From NCBI GenBank assembly GCA_951406725.2, contig OX597818.1, forward strand, positions 101,122,001 through 101,186,000: DNA of 64,000 nucleotides. The letters are read 5' to 3'. Below are positions 787 through 56,931 of this stretch, piece after piece. Below the pieces are notes generated by a model that searched no databases, was not told the DNA's origin, and saw only the letters and a list, made by a program, of their open reading frames with translations. The stretch comes from Octopus vulgaris (Eukaryota). Position 1 is the first letter of the stretch, and each line of letters begins with the position of its first letter. The translations under genes and the position numbers were made by a program.

Positions 787-997
787 TATATATATATAAA
801 TGGATGATTGAATTATCCTTTGTTTACAGTTAAAATGGAAAATTCAATAAACAGTTATCAGGGTAGAACAATTCACGCAAGTAACAAGGGTGTAGCAGTC
901 CTATTCAAAGGTAGAATCTCCGGGGTTGATGTGCAGTAATTTGTATAGTATTATTAAATAAATGGAGTTGAACGCAGGTGTTATTCAAATTCCTATA

Positions 998-1082
998 CCT
1001 TCGACGTATGTTCGAAGACAATATTGGTTTTATTCCAAAGGAATAAACGGTGTAAAATAATGTAATCTTCTCATCAGGAAAG
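998..1082 (-). ncRNA. Degenerate type I hammerhead ribozyme (GAAA reduced to GAA)
   Basis: Minus strand: ctttc-CTGATGA-gaag...cttc-GAA-catac-GTC-gaagg. Same family as the intact motif at 46023-46117. Confidence 0.6.
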
Positions 1083-1307
1083 AAAGAGAACAAGACATTA
1101 TAACAATTTTGATGACTGCATAAATGATAAATAGAACGCTATTAAGTATTTAAAATAAACGTTAGTAGGTCTGACGTCAAAAGCAGACAGTAGCAAGAGA
1201 AGGGGTAAAGAACTAATAAGTAGAGAACAAATAAAGAGGGATATATTGGTAGAAAAAAATGTTCAAAATCTTGGAAGTAGATTTCTCTATTGAAGTAAAG
1301 TGTAAAG

Positions 1308-32428: not shown

Positions 32429-33929
32429 TATATTATGTTCTATTTCTGTGAAAGGTATCAGGCATGTGATTAGCACATACCCAAAAATGCCATGAAGTTT
32501 TAACATCCCTATACGAATCGACTCTGTAGCAAAAACAATATACAATACCATTCCTATAAGAGACTATCATGGAATATATACAGGGAATTCTTCTGCTGCT
32601 GAATACCTTCAGAAATATCAATACAATGAATACTGGTGGAATATTTCCATCAGAATATCTGTCGGCTGTAAGCATAACAGGTCAGATATTGTTGTTTCGG
32701 GCAGACAAGAAAATGCCTGTGCCGTAATGGAGGTAATCTCTCCTGCTCATGTGAATATATCATTGAAAATCTAAGGCAAAAATATAATTATAGACAACAG
32801 CTTCGGAAATTCCAGCTTCTGTATCAACTTTTCAAGTTAATATATATGACAATAATAATTTGTGCACTTGGTTTTGTGAGTGAATACTTAATTGTCAGTT
32901 TGGATAATTATGGATATTCAAAAAAAAAAAAGAAATCCAGCAGCTAATTAGCGTATAACGAAGAAAAGCTGCAGTAAAAATATGCAAAACTCTTCCCAAG
33001 TTTAAAATGTGGCTTTGTTTTAGTAATCTGTTTTCAAATGAAGTAGATTTAAATCTTTGTTGGAAATACGATCCCTTCTCCAAAGAAGAATTTAAATAAT
33101 AAAAATCAGTAGGGACCATACATACCTACGAAGTTACTAACTAGATAAGAGACGAATGCATTTAATGATAGTTTTTAAATGTTGCTACCTTATGAATGCA
33201 ATAATATATTTTGGGACTGATTTGAAGCGAAACGTTTAAGCTATTTATACGGAAGCACTGCCAAAAGAATTGTCTAGAGAATGACTGGTCATTAATTATT
33301 CTTTACTATAAGACTGTGCACCTTTCCAATGAGATCCGTTAGTGCAAGGTTTCGTATTTCCTTTTGAACTTGATTATCTTGATTCCGTACATTGCCAGAA
33401 GAATTCTTACTCTGTATATCTAAATGATTAAAACTTGATGCGCAAGTGACTATCCTCTAAACATAAATACTGTCAGCGAAATATTATAGTGCATCTGACA
33501 TTAATAGAACGTGAATATATTGTGTTACTGAATTACAAGAAAACTCATACAGTAACCTCTTCTCAATTACTTGTCTAATATGTATATTAAGTTAGGATAA
33601 TGAATGAAGAAATACAAACACTGAATATTTATCTATTTCTCAAACATAATTGTGTGTAACCAGCTTACGATATTCTTGTGTGAATATTGTATATTTTGGA
33701 AATGGTTTCTCATAACAGTCTTCAGTTTTCCTAAGACTTCAACCCAGTTATTCAAATTTAGAGATGGAACAATGTACTAATGGGAATTACATATGCAACA
33801 GCAGAAAATTTACGTGTATTTTCGTTACGGTAGCTAAAATTAACACACGATTGCATTATGCTCCAGTAAATAACATATACTTGAATATATACGAGCGTGT
33901 ATGTTTGTACATAAGGACACGCACACAGC

Positions 33930-34475
33930 AAGCTATCCATCCCCTATTCCAAATTCCTCCGTCTACACAATCTCTGCAGTGAGAACCATGATGTTGAGAC
34001 TCAGTCTCAACTCATGGCTCGCCACTTCGTCCTATGTGGATTTCCCCTCACCACACTCCACACCGCCCTTGGCAGAGCCAGTTCCATGAACCATGCGTCT
34101 GCTCTCTTCCCCCGCAACCACCCGCCATCACCAGTCTCCCGTTTCCCCTCACCTACCCCGCCATCACACTACCTCTCCATCGCAACATCCTCCGGGACTT
34201 CCGGCGACGCCAGTCCGACCACTCCATTTTGCACATCTTCCCTAACCGGCCCCTCTCCTCCTTTACACGAGACCACAAGCTACGAGACCTCTTGGCCCAC
34301 AGATTCTTTCCTCACCCAACCTCCCAACCCAGCTCGTTCCATTGCTCCTGTCCAAGCTGCCGAACTTGCCCATACCTCTCCAACACAACCCTCCTCACAG
34401 GCAGTCATCATCGAACCTATCATATCACTGACTCCTCCACCTGCACGTTTAGCAACGTCATCTACTACATCATAC
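33930..34475 (+). pseudogene. C-rich PLE fragment (RT thumb, Cys knuckle, start of GIY-YIG)
   Basis: Frameshifted PLTY..LHRNILRDF..IFPNRPLSSFTRDHKLRDLL..CSCPSCRTCPY..ITDSSTCTFSNVIY. Confidence 0.8.
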
Positions 34476-34826
34476 TCAAGTGTTGGTTGTTGCGTGGCCA
34501 TCTCAATTGAGCGTTATATATGGGGTGGGGGGTAAAATGTGGTTTACCCTTAATTTATACGGCAAATAAGAAAATGGAGAGGATACAAAAACGACATTCA
34601 TCAGCCGGTAGACCCTATAGCATGTCTATTTATTGAAAAGTATCAGAAATTATTAGAATACATATACATGTAATAACTATGTGTCACTCACACATGTACT
34701 AATATTACAAAAAAGAGAAAATGATGTAATATCTTTGAATAAATGGATATACTAGAATGTGTACCGGCTGATGTATGTCGTTGTTTATACTCTCCATTTT
34801 TTTACGTCTTATATATATATATACAT

Positions 34827-43922: not shown

Positions 43923-45811
43923 CATATACAGTTACACCAGTGAACATTTGAATATATAATATATACAATGCTAAAATCTAGACTCATTTTTATGAATTGT
44001 TTTCATACATTGAAGCATTCTTTAGAAATATGGATAAACATAGAATGTCCAGATGGATAGAAATAAATGATGAAATCTGATAATACCTTAATATCTAAAA
44101 TTCGATCCATGAAGGAAAATGTCATGTCGCATGTAGGAATAATATTATGGCTTATGTAGAAAAAATATAGAGAGATTATATAGTGTAAAGCATACGAATA
44201 CGATAGGGTCATGTTTAATTCAAAGGTGTGTTTCAAAGAAATTAATCGGAACTTTAGAATCGGAAGGAAATAGATAAACAAATGTAAAATAAATAAAGAA
44301 AAAAACATGATAGAAAAATATGAATAAAAAAGTTATATTGAATCACGAGATTCACAATTTATTGGTGAGAAGGGTTCCAGCTACCGAAGTATGAATAGGC
44401 GTCTTTGGAATTAATATACCATACTGCTTTAATTCTTGATAGCATTCAATGGAGAATAATCTTTAAACTGTTTCAAACGCAGCTATCTTGATCACACTGC
44501 ATTATGTATAGATATACATAAGCACTGAATGCATTGAATAGATGTGTGCCTGGCTACATATTCTCTAGTGTAGGAATATATATATATTCAGACGCATTTT
44601 TCTATTTGTATGTTTTCTGATATCATCTTTCTTCTGCCTGCATGCAGATCAAACCTTCATAAATATGTATATAAACTCGTTTGTGATATGTAGGTATACA
44701 AATTCTGTGAAACAAATCCTAGTGTTGATCGAATACATGCATACATGCATTTGTGTTGTTCGCATGCGTATGAATCTATTTACACAAACACACACATACA
44801 TATAATATTTATGCATATATATATATATATATATTTACATGTGGCGTGTTTCTCAGAATGTACGTGTATATATATTCACATATATGATGTTACGTTTAGG
44901 CTCTCGCATACTCACACACACACACACACACTTTCACACGCACACACACGCACACGCGCACACACACATATATAATACTGATGCGTACACACCTTAAGTT
45001 ATATGCGTATATAGCAAGATAGAAAGATAGGGTGATAGTTATAAGTAGTTATGTGTGAAGAAGTGTGAATCTATTTGATAAAAAGAGATTAGAAAATGAA
45101 ACATAGTGCATAAATCGAAATAAAACAAATAAGTATCAGCTGATAGTGAGATAAAAATCATAGCATGCGAAGGGATATATTCAGAAATGACTGGATCTGG
45201 GCATTATTGATTTATTGACGCTGCAGGTCAATAAAATCAGAGAAAGATCGAGGCGAATCAAATAAGTTTAGCGTTGAAGATATCACCATCACAACGTGCT
45301 TTTATGCTACCTGTGGGAGTTATATATCACACCATGACCCTACATTGGCCCGTACTCGCGATTTCTAGTTATTACAAATGGCTGGTAGAGCTGATTGAGC
45401 TATCAATTGAGAAATTATTTAATGCATTCGTGGTTTGAGTCATTATCCGATGCAATCTTTGTGGTTTCCTATAATATCATATATTTATATTTATATTTAT
45501 AGTATACAGCAGGTGTCGATATATTTCAGTGAACTCGAATGTGATAAAAAGGCTAAGAGTTTTTTTATTTTAAAATATACTCGAATAACGTTTGGACAAA
45601 TAAGCACTCATGCATATGTCACATGTACGCTAATATGTATTTGCATGTGTATGTATATATATTTGCTTATATGTATATATATATATCTATGTGTGTGTGT
45701 GTGTGTGTATGTATATATACACACATATTTATACATATATATACATAAACATATATACATATATACATATCTCTCACTTTACCTATTTCTCTTCCTCTCT
45801 CTCTCTCTCTC

Positions 45812-45852
<41 letters not shown>

Positions 45853-45892
45853 TAAATAAATAAATGGAGTTGAACGAACATGTTAACAAAAT

Positions 45893-45987
45893 TCCTTTAC
45901 TCTCGACATATGTTTCGAAGTCAACATGGTTTTATTCCAAAGGAATAAACGGTGCAAGATGCAATCTTCTCATCAGGAAAGAAAGGG
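45893..45987 (-). ncRNA. Type I hammerhead ribozyme (left arm)
   Basis: Mirror copy of 46023-46117. Predicted cleavage after the C complementary to G45905. Confidence 0.82.
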
Positions 45988-46022
45988 AGCCTCGCTCTTT
46001 TGTCTTGTTGTTGAGAGAGGCT

Positions 46023-46117
46023 CCCTTTCTTTCCTGATGAGAAGATTGCATCTTGCACCGTTTATTCCTTTGGAATAAAACCATGTTGACTTCGAAACAT
46101 ATGTCGAGAGTAAAGGG
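46023..46117 (+). ncRNA. Type I hammerhead ribozyme (right arm)
   Basis: cccttt-ctttc-CTGATGA-gaag...cttc-GAAA-catat-GTC-gagag-t-aaaggg. Palindromic stem III ACATATGT, long stem II with inner hairpin TTTATTCC/GGAATAAA, cleavage after 46105. Confidence 0.85.
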
Positions 46118-46310
46118 ATTTTGTTAACATGTTCGTTCAACTCCATTTATTTATTTATTCGTATATAACACACAAATTTCTGCACATGAACCCAGATTTT
46201 CTACCCTTGGACAGGTTGCTTCAACCGTGTTTCTGACGTGAATTTGCTACCCTCTTATCGGTTCATCGAATTTTCAATGTTGACAATAACATAGGATAAT
46301 TCATTCACCT

Positions 46311-46352
<42 letters not shown>

Positions 46353-46353
46353 C

Positions 46354-46426
46354 ACGGTTACTGATGAGGATACGCCTAGCAAAATATTTTATTTGCTAAA
46401 ATAATCTGAAACCTAAGTATGACCGT
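46354..46426 (+). ncRNA. Type I hammerhead ribozyme (different family)
   Basis: acggtta-CTGATGA-ggat...atct-GAAA-cctaa-GTA-tgaccgt. 7-bp stem I, near-palindromic stem III, cleavage after 46419. Confidence 0.8.
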
Positions 46427-46569
46427 AATAACAAGATAAAAGTTATATTTTTCATTCCCTTTAAAAATTTCTCTTGAAAAGTAGTTTTGGTCGTTTTGAC
46501 TGCTTCTTCTAGCCTGTAAAAATGCCTATTAGGGGTAGTTTTCTCTTGTGTTTAAATGAACACTATTAA

Positions 46570-54152: not shown

Positions 54153-55222
54153 TATACAATGTATATGTAGAGGTGTCCCCATGTGTGTGGATGTTTGTGA
54201 ACAGAGTAAATCGACATATAAGATAAAATCTAAATAGTGTGATAGAAATTATCGTTATTTGTGCATGCGAGATATATATAGTTAATGAAAGAGTCAATAC
54301 GGTTAATTTGCTCACAATTCTACCTTCACTTGAAATGCAGGAAGATTTGAATATATTTTCAAAAAAATGAACGTTGTATTACTTGTCACCGGCATAATAC
54401 ATAAACACTAGTGTAAAATATATACAAGTATTCACTACGTTTTCATTTGTATAGATTTGTAGAATTATTCATTGAAACATTTCCATTTTTTTTCCCTTTC
54501 TGATATTTTCTATCTTTAACACAATTTAAAAACAACGAAAGGTTATTTTTTTTCTCCTCTTACAATTTCTATAACTCCTAAGAGTCATACACGTATTCAA
54601 TAGAGACGGTATAACTTTACAAGTAAATAAAAGAGAAAATGTGAAAAAAGAATATGGACGATTCAAGAAAGGCTGAAAAATAAATAAAACAAAGCGCCTG
54701 AACTTGTTTCATTTTCAAAATGATTTCTAGACTTGAATAAATATCTTGTGAAAAGAAAAGAGAGAATAAATTACGTCAAAGTGAACATAAATCGCACAGG
54801 AAGAACGTGTACAGAGCAGAGAAACGAAATATTCTTGACAACACGTTACCAACAAATGAAACAGTATCACAAAACACGAATGTTAAAAAAAATGTGATAC
54901 TTTTTATTGATATGAAGCACAGTATACAAGAAAAAAATATGAATAATTTTCGCAAAAGCAAAACTGAGCAGATTGCCAGTTAAAAAATGTCTTTCGTGAA
55001 CATTTTATTCTTTTTCCATAGAAGTAAGTTGATAAGATATATTGCTATAAGAACTGTTTTTCTTGTTACTTTTATTATTATTAATATGCACCCGGGTACT
55101 CGTTGGCTTGGTTATTGCTATATATACAATTTTCTTTACGCAAATATATACTAAGATGTATGTTTATGCGTGCAAGCGCGCACACGCACACATGCACATA
55201 TATACACATATACACAAACACA

Positions 55223-55256
<34 letters not shown>

Positions 55257-55261
<5 letters not shown>

Positions 55262-56931
55262 CCAATTTTGAACCAAAACCCAGCAACTTCTACGGCTTAC
55301 CAAAAATACACAAATCAAAAAACATTCAACAGGCAGTAAAAGAACAAGAAAGTGAGTACATAAAATTATTACATCCAAAAGACCTAAAACTTAGACCTAT
55401 TATAGCTGGTCCAGCATGCCCTACACACCGTCTAAGCAATTTTATTGACATTGTTTTGAAACCACTATGTACTTACATACCAAGTTTCATCAGGGATGAC
55501 ATCGACTTCCTGTCCCATCTTCCCAAAACAACAGAAACAAATTCAGTTTTACTAAGTTTTGATGTGGTAAGCCTCTACACCAATATTCCACACGATTTAG
55601 GAATAAAGGCGATTAAATACTGGTTAGAAAAACATAGAGAAGTGATTCACAGCAGATTCACAGTGCCATTTATATTAGACACAGTCAAACTTATTCTAGA
55701 AAATAACACATTCTTCTTCAATGGAAAGAATTACATCCAAATTAGAGGCACGGCGATGGGAACGAGGTTTGCTCCCGTTTACGCCAACTCTGTAATGGGA
55801 TACTTAGAAGAACAACTCTACCAAGAGGTGGAGGTAAACTATGGCACTGGATTTAGAAAGTATATTGAAAAGGCATGGAAGAGATACCTAGACGACTGTT
55901 TCATAATCTGGACAGAATCTCTAAATACTCTGGAAGAGTTCAATATCCTCCTGAACAACCTACACCCATCTCTCAAATTTACAAAGGAGATGAGTAGTAC
56001 CAAATTACCATTCCTGGATATAATGGTAATTAAAAAAGACACCACCATCACCACAGATATATACTATAAACACACAGACACACATCAATACCTAAATTTT
56101 AAGTCGTGCCATCCACCACATACAAAACGTAACATCCCATACTGCCTAGCCAGAAGAATTTGTACTATTGTAGAAGATGCAAATATCAGGAACAAACGCC
56201 TAATAGAACTAAGAGAATTTTTGCTCAAACAAAAATACCCATCTCTACTTATAGAAAATGGCATACAGCGGGCTATAAAAATACCTATACAACAACTTAG
56301 GACAACCCAAGGAAGAGGAAAACAAGAACAAGTCATACCATTCATAGTGACACACAACCCATGTCACCAGAATATCTTCAACATTGCCAAAGCAAACCTA
56401 CCAATCATTGCCCAAAGTAATGAATTAAAAGACATAATCAAGGATCGAGCTATGGTGCTTAGTAAAAGACAGCCTAAAAACTTGAAAACATTACTAACAA
56501 AGGCAAAAATTGACCTCAGCAACAAAGACCAAACATTCACGGTATCTAAATGCAATGATAGCCGATGTGGCACATGCCAATTCATACATACCGGTCAATA
56601 TATAAACACAAAAACCGGGAAAATATTCACAAACGCGAATATGAACTGCAAAAGCAGAAATTTAATTTACTGCATCAAATGCCCAAATTGTGAAGAAATA
56701 TATGTAGGTCAGACGGGAAACGCACTATTAGAACGCTCACGTGTACACCGGCAACAGATTAGAGACCCAGAGGTCCGTCAGATACCTTTGAGTAACCACC
56801 TAGCAACATGTGGTCGGAAAATATATATAATATTTCCATTCTACAAATTACACAGCCCAAGTGAAATCGAGAGGAAAATCAGAGAAAAGAATTTTATTGA
56901 TAAATTCGAACCCAAGCTAAATAAGCAATAA
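55257..56931 (+). CDS. PLE reverse transcriptase-GIY-YIG endonuclease ORF, 5'-truncated (no genuine start)
   Basis: FYGLPKIHK, LRPII, SFDVVSLYTNIP, GTAMGTRFAP, RYLDD, LPFLD, YYKHT..YL..SCHP, CNDSRCGTC knuckle, LIYCIKC..C..IYVGQT, R..H, E..FI..F.P.LN. About 557 codons with no stop. Confidence 0.95.

What the first reader, a model, noticed from the sequence alone, without database searches (positions are those of the whole stretch)
45850..46160. Young palindromic cassette with a hammerhead on each strand
Seen: 148-bp arms with only 2 mismatches and a 15-nt loop, each arm holding a complete HHR pointing outward. There is no ORF and (TA)n lies on both sides. Inference: read-through from either direction gives an RNA where the antisense arm precedes and can sequester the ribozyme as a long dsRNA hairpin. 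That would be an ADAR/Dicer substrate and a potential self-silencing switch, while transcripts starting inside could cleave.
Basis: partly seen in the sequence, partly recalled or inferred. Interest (0 to 1): 0.75.

Follow-up and report, generated by a model that had tools for sequence, protein, structure and literature searches.

The report
Inverted Penelope retrotransposon end with hammerheads
The palindrome is two clipped copies of the ribozyme-bearing end of a common Penelope-type jumping gene joined head to head in a TA repeat, likely left by one ordinary insertion rather than built as an RNA switch.

Summary
The palindrome is real: 148-bp arms, 2 mismatches, a 15-nt loop and a type I hammerhead motif on each strand. 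It is not a self-contained cassette. The right arm runs on through a 154-bp family 'tail' to 46314 before (AT)n, and the loop is element sequence. The arms are 94-96% identical to the end repeat (pLTR) of an abundant Penelope-like retroelement whose ORF folds like telomerase RT and carries most Hydra-clade motifs. The exact junction occurs once in 2.8 Gb; sibling inversions have other junctions. Sequestration of the ribozyme in a read-through RNA is predicted, but as a by-product; transcription, cleavage and editing are untested. Residual interest: 29 of 29 classifiable inverted pairs join one short end to one tail-bearing end; the tail is about 155 nt, not 30-40; the family lacks the linker zinc finger yet sits in (TA)n. 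The scan noted such palindromes and the end rule before on other DNA of this genome.

The parts
45815..45849 (.). (TA)n target microsatellite, left flank, 35 nt
45850..45997 (-). Inverted, 5'-truncated pLTR copy (family positions -147 to 0), ending at the short end E1
45890..45988 (-). Type I hammerhead motif of the left arm; core starts 45976, predicted cleavage after 45905
   Evidence: activity untested
45998..46012 (+). 15-nt loop: extra 5' pLTR sequence of the right-hand copy; the inversion junction lies at 45997/45998 and is unique in the genome
46013..46160 (+). Direct, 5'-truncated pLTR copy (right arm)
46022..46118 (+). Type I hammerhead motif of the right arm: stem I 46022-46033 with 46106-46118, core 46034-46040, extended stem II 46041-46051 with 46083-46093, GAAA 46094-46097, 2-bp stem III with palindromic ATAT loop, predicted cleavage after C46105
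   Evidence: activity untested
46161..46314 (+). Tail of about 155 nt (one base missing here), present on one arm only; in the parent element it lies between the upstream pLTR and the ORF start, ending about 55 nt before the ATG
46315..46349 (.). (AT)n target microsatellite, right flank, 35 nt

Best explanation
The feature is a doubly 5'-truncated, head-to-head insertion of the end repeat (pLTR) of an abundant Hydra-like Penelope retroelement, and it likely arose in one target-primed reverse transcription event in a (TA)n array. Shown: both arms are pLTR sequence; the left stops at the short end, the right carries the 155-nt tail; the junction is unique; both flanks are (TA)n. Inferred: the element's GIY-YIG endonuclease cut both strands of the TA array; each 3' end primed a cDNA on element RNA, one at the short-end site and one at the site 155 nt further 3'; both stopped early (at -147 and -161/-162) and were joined flush. 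The two hammerheads are passengers of the pLTR. A read-through RNA is predicted to form a long hairpin that keeps the sense-strand hammerhead from folding, but this would be a by-product common to all such insertions.
For: Arms and tail match both pLTRs of a pLTR-tail-ORF-pLTR element at 94-96% (L031). A 785-aa natural ORF, 95% identical to the family's RT segment, folds with mean pLDDT 79 and has TERT structures as its five best matches (E 2e-9 to 2e-8); a C-terminal fragment gives a weak GIY-YIG hit (E 0.011, below cut-off). 2475 first-look candidates for the arm in the genome. Junction pattern 1 match in 2.8 Gb. 30 of 49 sampled sites are head-to-head pairs; 29 of 29 classifiable ones join a short and a tail-bearing end; 76 of 84 copies end at one of the two sites. 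63 of 76 ends are followed by (TA)5 within 30 nt, background 7%. Both arms share two variants (46089/45921, 46131/45879) seen in no other of 74 and 75 copies, and arms of one site share 2.8 non-majority bases per 100 nt against 0.45 across sites: one donor. Literature: inverted 5'-truncated copy and a tail on one end only (PMC8557442, passages); two RT start sites delimiting the tail, both strands cut and extended (PMC11167929, parts 1-2 of 4).
Against: No reads span this junction in anything I could examine, so the locus is not confirmed outside the assembly. The mechanism is transferred from a Poseidon-clade protein in vitro; no Hydra protein has been tested in the papers read. The shared private variants could also come from conversion between arms after insertion. 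Pfam gave no RT hit for 14 proteins or fragments scanned. The sample of sites was chosen by likeness to the arm or the junction, so 30 of 49 is not the genome-wide share of inverted copies.
Confidence: 0.9

Rival explanations
1. The palindrome is a propagating, foldback-like cassette or a selected self-silencing RNA switch in which the upstream arm controls ribozyme cleavage.
For: The hairpin is predicted to out-compete the hammerhead fold by more than 200 kcal/mol. Both cores are intact. Eleven other sites have a junction near the same place.
Against: Exact junction found once. The eleven were selected by the junction query and differ from it; 5' breakpoints of tight pairs run from -212 to +109. 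Intact cores are the family norm, 60 of 69 copies, so they show no selection at this locus. The insertion is asymmetric.
Confidence: 0.03
2. A single pLTR insertion was later turned into a palindrome by DNA fold-back synthesis or repair, or its arms were homogenised by gene conversion.
For: Two private variants are shared by both arms, and the arms differ by 2 of 296 bases while the tail differs from the majority at 8 of 142 (p=0.003).
Against: The left arm stops exactly at the family's short end and no flank is mirrored; a fold-back of the right-hand copy would have no reason to stop there. Copies without an inverted partner show the same lower variation in pLTR than tail (0.61% against 1.56%), so the contrast is not specific to palindromes. 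Right arm against tail, counting shared variants: p=0.12.
Confidence: 0.04
3. The palindrome is an assembly fold-back artefact.
For: No spanning read was seen here; complex PLE insertions are known to trouble short-read assemblies (PMC8557442, passage).
Against: Arms differ at 2 sites, only one has the tail, the flanks are not mirrored, and 28 other pairs follow the same short/long rule with their own junctions.
Confidence: 0.03

Closest known systems
Hydra clade of C-terminal EN+ Penelope-like elements, e.g. Hydra-1_Obim (Craig et al. 2021, PMC8557442; section 11 read whole, passages, supplement look-ups)
   Same: Single ORF with RT and C-terminal GIY-YIG-type domain; RW motif, DKT, CxxC before E and CxH after N, no CCHH; hammerhead in the 3' repeat; (TA)n targets; an octopus member is listed. 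By eye the N-terminal and RT motifs match the supplement's Hydra proteins.
   Different: The CxCX5C linker is absent in 4 of 4 ORFs of this lineage but present in 98 of 102 outside homologues; Asn/Ser-rich inserts lengthen the ORF to about 900 aa and the unit to 3.2-3.6 kb (Hydra generally <3 kb); RW is followed by L, not K; the hammerhead has an 11-bp interrupted stem II with a 31-nt loop, against 7 bp and 8 nt listed for Hydra-1_Obim.
Inverted pLTR plus optional tail layout of EN+ PLEs (Arkhipova et al. 2013, PMC3846280, passages; PMC8557442 Fig. 2 legend)
   Same: Inverted 5'-truncated copy adjacent at the 5' end, head to head; tail on only one end; Asn-rich inserts between RT and EN also reported in Adineta Pen2a.
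   Different: Tail about 155 nt instead of 30-40 bp; here both copies are cut down to the pLTR so no ORF remains.
Poseidon_Ac of the green anole in vitro (Frangieh et al. 2024, PMC11167929, parts 1-2 of 4)
   Same: Two fixed reverse-transcription start sites delimit the tail; both target strands are cut and extended; AT-rich targets.
   Different: There the sites lie 111-118 nt inside the ORF and close together; here both ends lie upstream of the ATG and 155 nt apart, each directly before an AT-rich motif (ATATATA, AAATAT).
PLE hammerheads and animal non-LTR retrozymes (PMC4209133, parts 1-2 of 4; PMC7229834, passages; bioRxiv 10.64898/2026.07.22.740005, part 1 of 5, supplements closed)
   Same: Type I hammerhead with short stem III and palindromic loop; pairs of hammerheads 100-700 bp apart on opposite strands were already noted in Schistosoma and assigned to truncated PLEs (PMC4209133).
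   Different: Not a tandem array; the sequence is the end of a coding element, not a separate non-coding unit.

Membership tests
EN+ Penelope-like element | Parent element with pLTRs flanking one RT+EN ORF | tested here: met
   L031: pLTR-tail-broken ORF-pLTR, unit 3179 bp; L083 sister family in tandem with 899-aa frames
EN+ Penelope-like element | Telomerase-like reverse transcriptase | tested here: met
   YRDD motif; fold search top five hits TERT. Sequence search of PDB and Pfam gave no RT hit
EN+ Penelope-like element | C-terminal GIY-YIG endonuclease | tested here: inconclusive
   Pfam GIY-YIG E 0.011, 16.5 bits, below cut-off 22.6; IYQ...YIG motif aligned across homologues; domain not searched alone by fold
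EN+ Penelope-like element | 5' truncation, inverted adjacent copy, tail on one end | tested here: met
Hydra clade | DKT in place of DKG | tested here: met
   SDKT in the 7 long frames that cover the site; 2 further frames start downstream of it
Hydra clade | N-terminal RWK motif | tested here: inconclusive
   RIRWLA / RMRWLA: RW kept, K replaced by L
Hydra clade | No CCHH; CxxC before E and CxH after N in the endonuclease | tested here: met
   CNIC..E / CNLC..E and CxH near the C-terminus in frames that reach it
Hydra clade | CxCX5C linker | tested here: not met
   0 of 4 lineage ORFs, 98 of 102 outside homologues. I therefore call the family Hydra-like (a derived variant), not a typical member
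Hydra clade | Length under 3 kb | tested here: not met
   3179 bp in L031, about 3624 bp in L083; excess is low-complexity insert, disordered in the model
Hydra clade | Insertion in (TA)n | tested here: met
   63 of 76 ends
Hydra clade | Placement in an RT phylogeny with published Hydra proteins | not tested
   Published sequences were seen in the supplement and compared by eye only; no tree was built
Type I hammerhead ribozyme | CUGANGA and GAAA..UH core, G10.1-C11.1, three helices with helix I open | tested here: met
   89.8% of cells paired, 9 of 26 pairs with two-sided changes, 0 of 500 shuffles as high, slid controls 42-56%. Rfam no hit. In single-sequence folding stems II and III have pair probability <=0.03
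Type I hammerhead ribozyme | Self-cleavage | not testable with these tools
   needs an in vitro assay
Non-LTR retrozyme | Non-coding tandem units, two or more same-strand hammerheads | tested here: not met
   one hammerhead per strand, sequence traced to a coding element
Foldback/MITE-like propagating cassette | Many copies with the same ends and centre | tested here: not met
   junction 1 match; 18 different junctions among 19

The most novel reading that the evidence does not exclude
The family records a strictly coordinated two-site priming mechanism: every inverted insertion pairs one cDNA started at the short end with one started 155 nt downstream (29 of 29), as expected if one dimeric Penelope RNP primes the two cut strands at two different AT-rich sites of its RNA, and it targets (TA)n without the linker zinc finger proposed to do that job, perhaps through primer-template pairing. 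That would make the unexplained origin of Penelope inversions testable with an intact sister-family protein.
Probability: 0.4. Interest if true: 0.5.

Novelty: new member of a known kind. Interest (0 to 1): 0.18.

Why it matters
The locus itself is ordinary transposon debris. As a class, such insertions would scatter long perfect hairpins through the genome, a possible source of double-stranded RNA for editing and silencing where they are transcribed; nothing here shows that this one is. The family-level regularities bear on a question that PMC8557442 names as open, how PLEs form inverted repeats and choose microsatellites: the short/long end rule constrains the priming model, and loss of the linker cysteines with TA targeting kept argues against the linker being required for it.

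Tried and rejected
Rfam at gathering score over the window and at E<=10 over 45700-46500: no hammerhead family, only generic hairpin matches below cut-off. Pfam on 6+4 ORF fragments and 4 homologues, and PDB by sequence: no RT hit. Protein atlas gave no answer. Sequencing runs: no RNA holder listed. Contigs of 4 DNA-type runs and 4 possible RNA runs laid on 45950-46310 hold family sequence as short pieces, but no listed piece bridges the junction and the possible RNA contigs read the family base at 46117 and 46131; these are contigs of probably other individuals and say nothing for or against the junction, expression or editing. Arm-to-arm conversion as the cause of high arm identity: suggested, not upheld by the control on copies without a partner. 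My first guess of the Neptune clade was dropped after the motifs matched Hydra. Alignment A2 had misplaced rows; it was redone as A3 without the old window copy at about 985-1098 and with three references corrected. Whether the locus lies in an intron was not determined. Paper searches showed no paper on this family; only listings were seen for most hits, closed journals, Repbase and bioRxiv supplements were out of reach, so absence from print is not established.

Full report
Observation. The inverted repeat is present: arms 45850-45997 and 46013-46160, two mismatches, 15-nt loop. Each arm carries CTGATGA, a stem II closed by G-C, GAAA, a 2-bp stem III with the palindromic loop ATAT, TC and a stem I of 11-12 bp, so both are type I hammerhead motifs reading outward. 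Rfam does not recognise them and single-sequence folding prefers other local hairpins to stems II and III (pair probability <=0.03). Comparative evidence supports the fold: in 14 sequences from close copies to distant subfamilies 89.8% of cells pair, 9 of 26 pairs show two-sided changes, no shuffle of 500 reaches this and slid controls give 42-56%. The structure was drawn from these sequences and they are related, so this is support, not a probability. Stem II is an interrupted 11-bp helix with a long loop. The statement that (TA)n lies on both sides needs correction: the right arm is followed by 154 bp that recur in most siblings, and only then by (AT)n at 46315.

What it is. A search of the own genome (2.8 Gb, 227 contigs; the best named homologue is from Argonauta, so an octopod host is inferred) gave 2475 first-look candidates, of which 40 were scored, with matches at 91-98%. 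Following the shared flanks led to L031, where the same repeat occurs twice 3179 bp apart around a broken ORF: pLTR, tail, ORF, pLTR. The window's arms and tail match it at 94-96%. The 15-nt loop is simply more 5' pLTR sequence of the right-hand copy. A natural 785-aa frame 95% identical to the family's RT segment was folded with 105 relatives; its five best structural matches are telomerase RTs. Motifs fit the Hydra clade as defined in section 11 of PMC8557442: DKT, RW, no CCHH, CxxC and CxH in the endonuclease, (TA)n targets; the paper's supplement lists an octopus member, Hydra-1_Obim, whose motifs match by eye. Two features fail: the CxCX5C linker is missing in 4 of 4 ORFs of this lineage against 98 of 102 outside homologues, and the unit exceeds 3 kb. 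I file it as a Hydra-like PLE.

Is the palindrome a unit that spreads? No. The junction pattern has one match in the genome. A junction-centred search returned eleven other sites that match across the whole query, none identical. Among 49 sampled sites 30 are head-to-head pairs, with spacers from 0 to 2.7 kb; 19 tight junctions fall into 18 different ones, 11 of them with 1-6 nt overlaps. The sample was chosen by likeness to the arm or junction, so these are not genome-wide shares.

How it arose. Ends are not random: 39 of 84 copies stop at the short end and 37 about 155 nt further on; 8 stop elsewhere or at a locus edge. Of the 30 pairs one is cut by the locus edge; the other 29 all join one short end to one tail-bearing end. 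Five of those tails are only partly matched (to +55, +96, +109 twice, +134) and two sites are duplicates of each other, leaving 28 independent cases; independent choice at equal odds would give (1/2)^28. Both arms of the window share two variants found in no other copy, and arms of one site share subfamily bases six times more often than copies from different sites, so both came from one donor. Both end sites lie directly before an AT-rich motif in the parent and 63 of 76 ends run into (TA)5. The literature describes this layout: an inverted 5'-truncated copy next to the 5' end and a 30-40 bp tail on one end (PMC8557442; PMC3846280), and an anole PLE protein that cuts and extends both strands and starts reverse transcription at two sites delimiting the tail (PMC11167929). 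I infer that two cDNAs, primed from the two cut strands at the two sites, stopped at -147 and about -161 and were joined. Whether they used one RNA or two cannot be told from sequence.

The switch idea. A read-through RNA from either side would meet the antisense arm first and is predicted to form a hairpin of about -259 kcal/mol against -16 to -20 for a hammerhead fold, so sequestration is plausible physics. Nothing points to selection for it: intact cores are the norm (60 of 69 copies) and junctions are idiosyncratic. Opposite-strand hammerhead pairs from truncated PLEs were noted in 2014 (PMC4209133). Whether an internally started transcript would cleave is open: PLE hammerheads showed low activity and the anole one needed protein, but invertebrate motifs with a 2-bp stem III can cleave as monomers (PMC7229834). 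An inverted pair offers no same-strand partner for the dimeric fold. Public runs did not inform on junction, expression or editing.

Results against my reading. No spanning read was seen. The GIY-YIG call is below Pfam's cut-off and no RT profile hit. The tail of this copy is more diverged than its arms, which first suggested conversion between arms; copies without a partner show the same contrast, so I dropped it, but it cannot be excluded for the two shared variants.

Earlier notes. Unchecked notes of this scan reach the same reading for other palindromes in this genome; one reports the short/long rule, which I had already counted; one pointed me to PMC3846280; one saw signs of two different parents at its locus, whereas here the arms point to one donor. 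A look-up by sequence found nothing.

Verdict. A real, ordinary inverted PLE stub: new member of a known kind, interest 0.18. The family-level end rule, long tail and lost linker deserve a proper census; the locus does not by itself.

Noticed in passing
window 792-1302 (- strand), with a further piece at 1754-1936: An older copy of the same family (76-84% identical) with tail and a hammerhead that lacks one A of GAAA; interrupted near 1302 by other sequence.
   Followed up: partly
window 55051-56931 (+): [quoted passage not shown]
   Followed up: no
window 33915-34535 (+): Decayed frame resembling the thumb and endonuclease end of a third Penelope-like family.
   Followed up: no
L082 1735-4431 (+), L083 5664-8360 (-): A sister family (74% identical in RT) has many near-identical 899-aa open frames in the genome, tandem units of about 3.6 kb, a covarying hammerhead and its own short and long ends about 160 nt apart; it looks very recently active.
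   Followed up: partly
L070, L080, L082, L087, just before the endonuclease domain: The cysteines of the Hydra linker zinc finger are replaced in all four, behind an Asn/Ser-rich insert, yet insertions stay in (TA)n.
   Followed up: partly
L046 and L047 (G000 C27, 17 kb apart): Identical inverted insertion and neighbours at two places: a local duplication of host DNA or an assembly duplicate.
   Followed up: no
window 45815-45849 and 46315-46349: Both flanking TA runs are exactly 35 nt; may be a target duplication or chance.
   Followed up: no
alignment A3 columns 49-63; window 46061-46075: A TTATTC.T.GGA motif in the large loop of stem II is kept across all subfamilies, including the most distant; possible tertiary contact or protein-binding site.
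   Followed up: no
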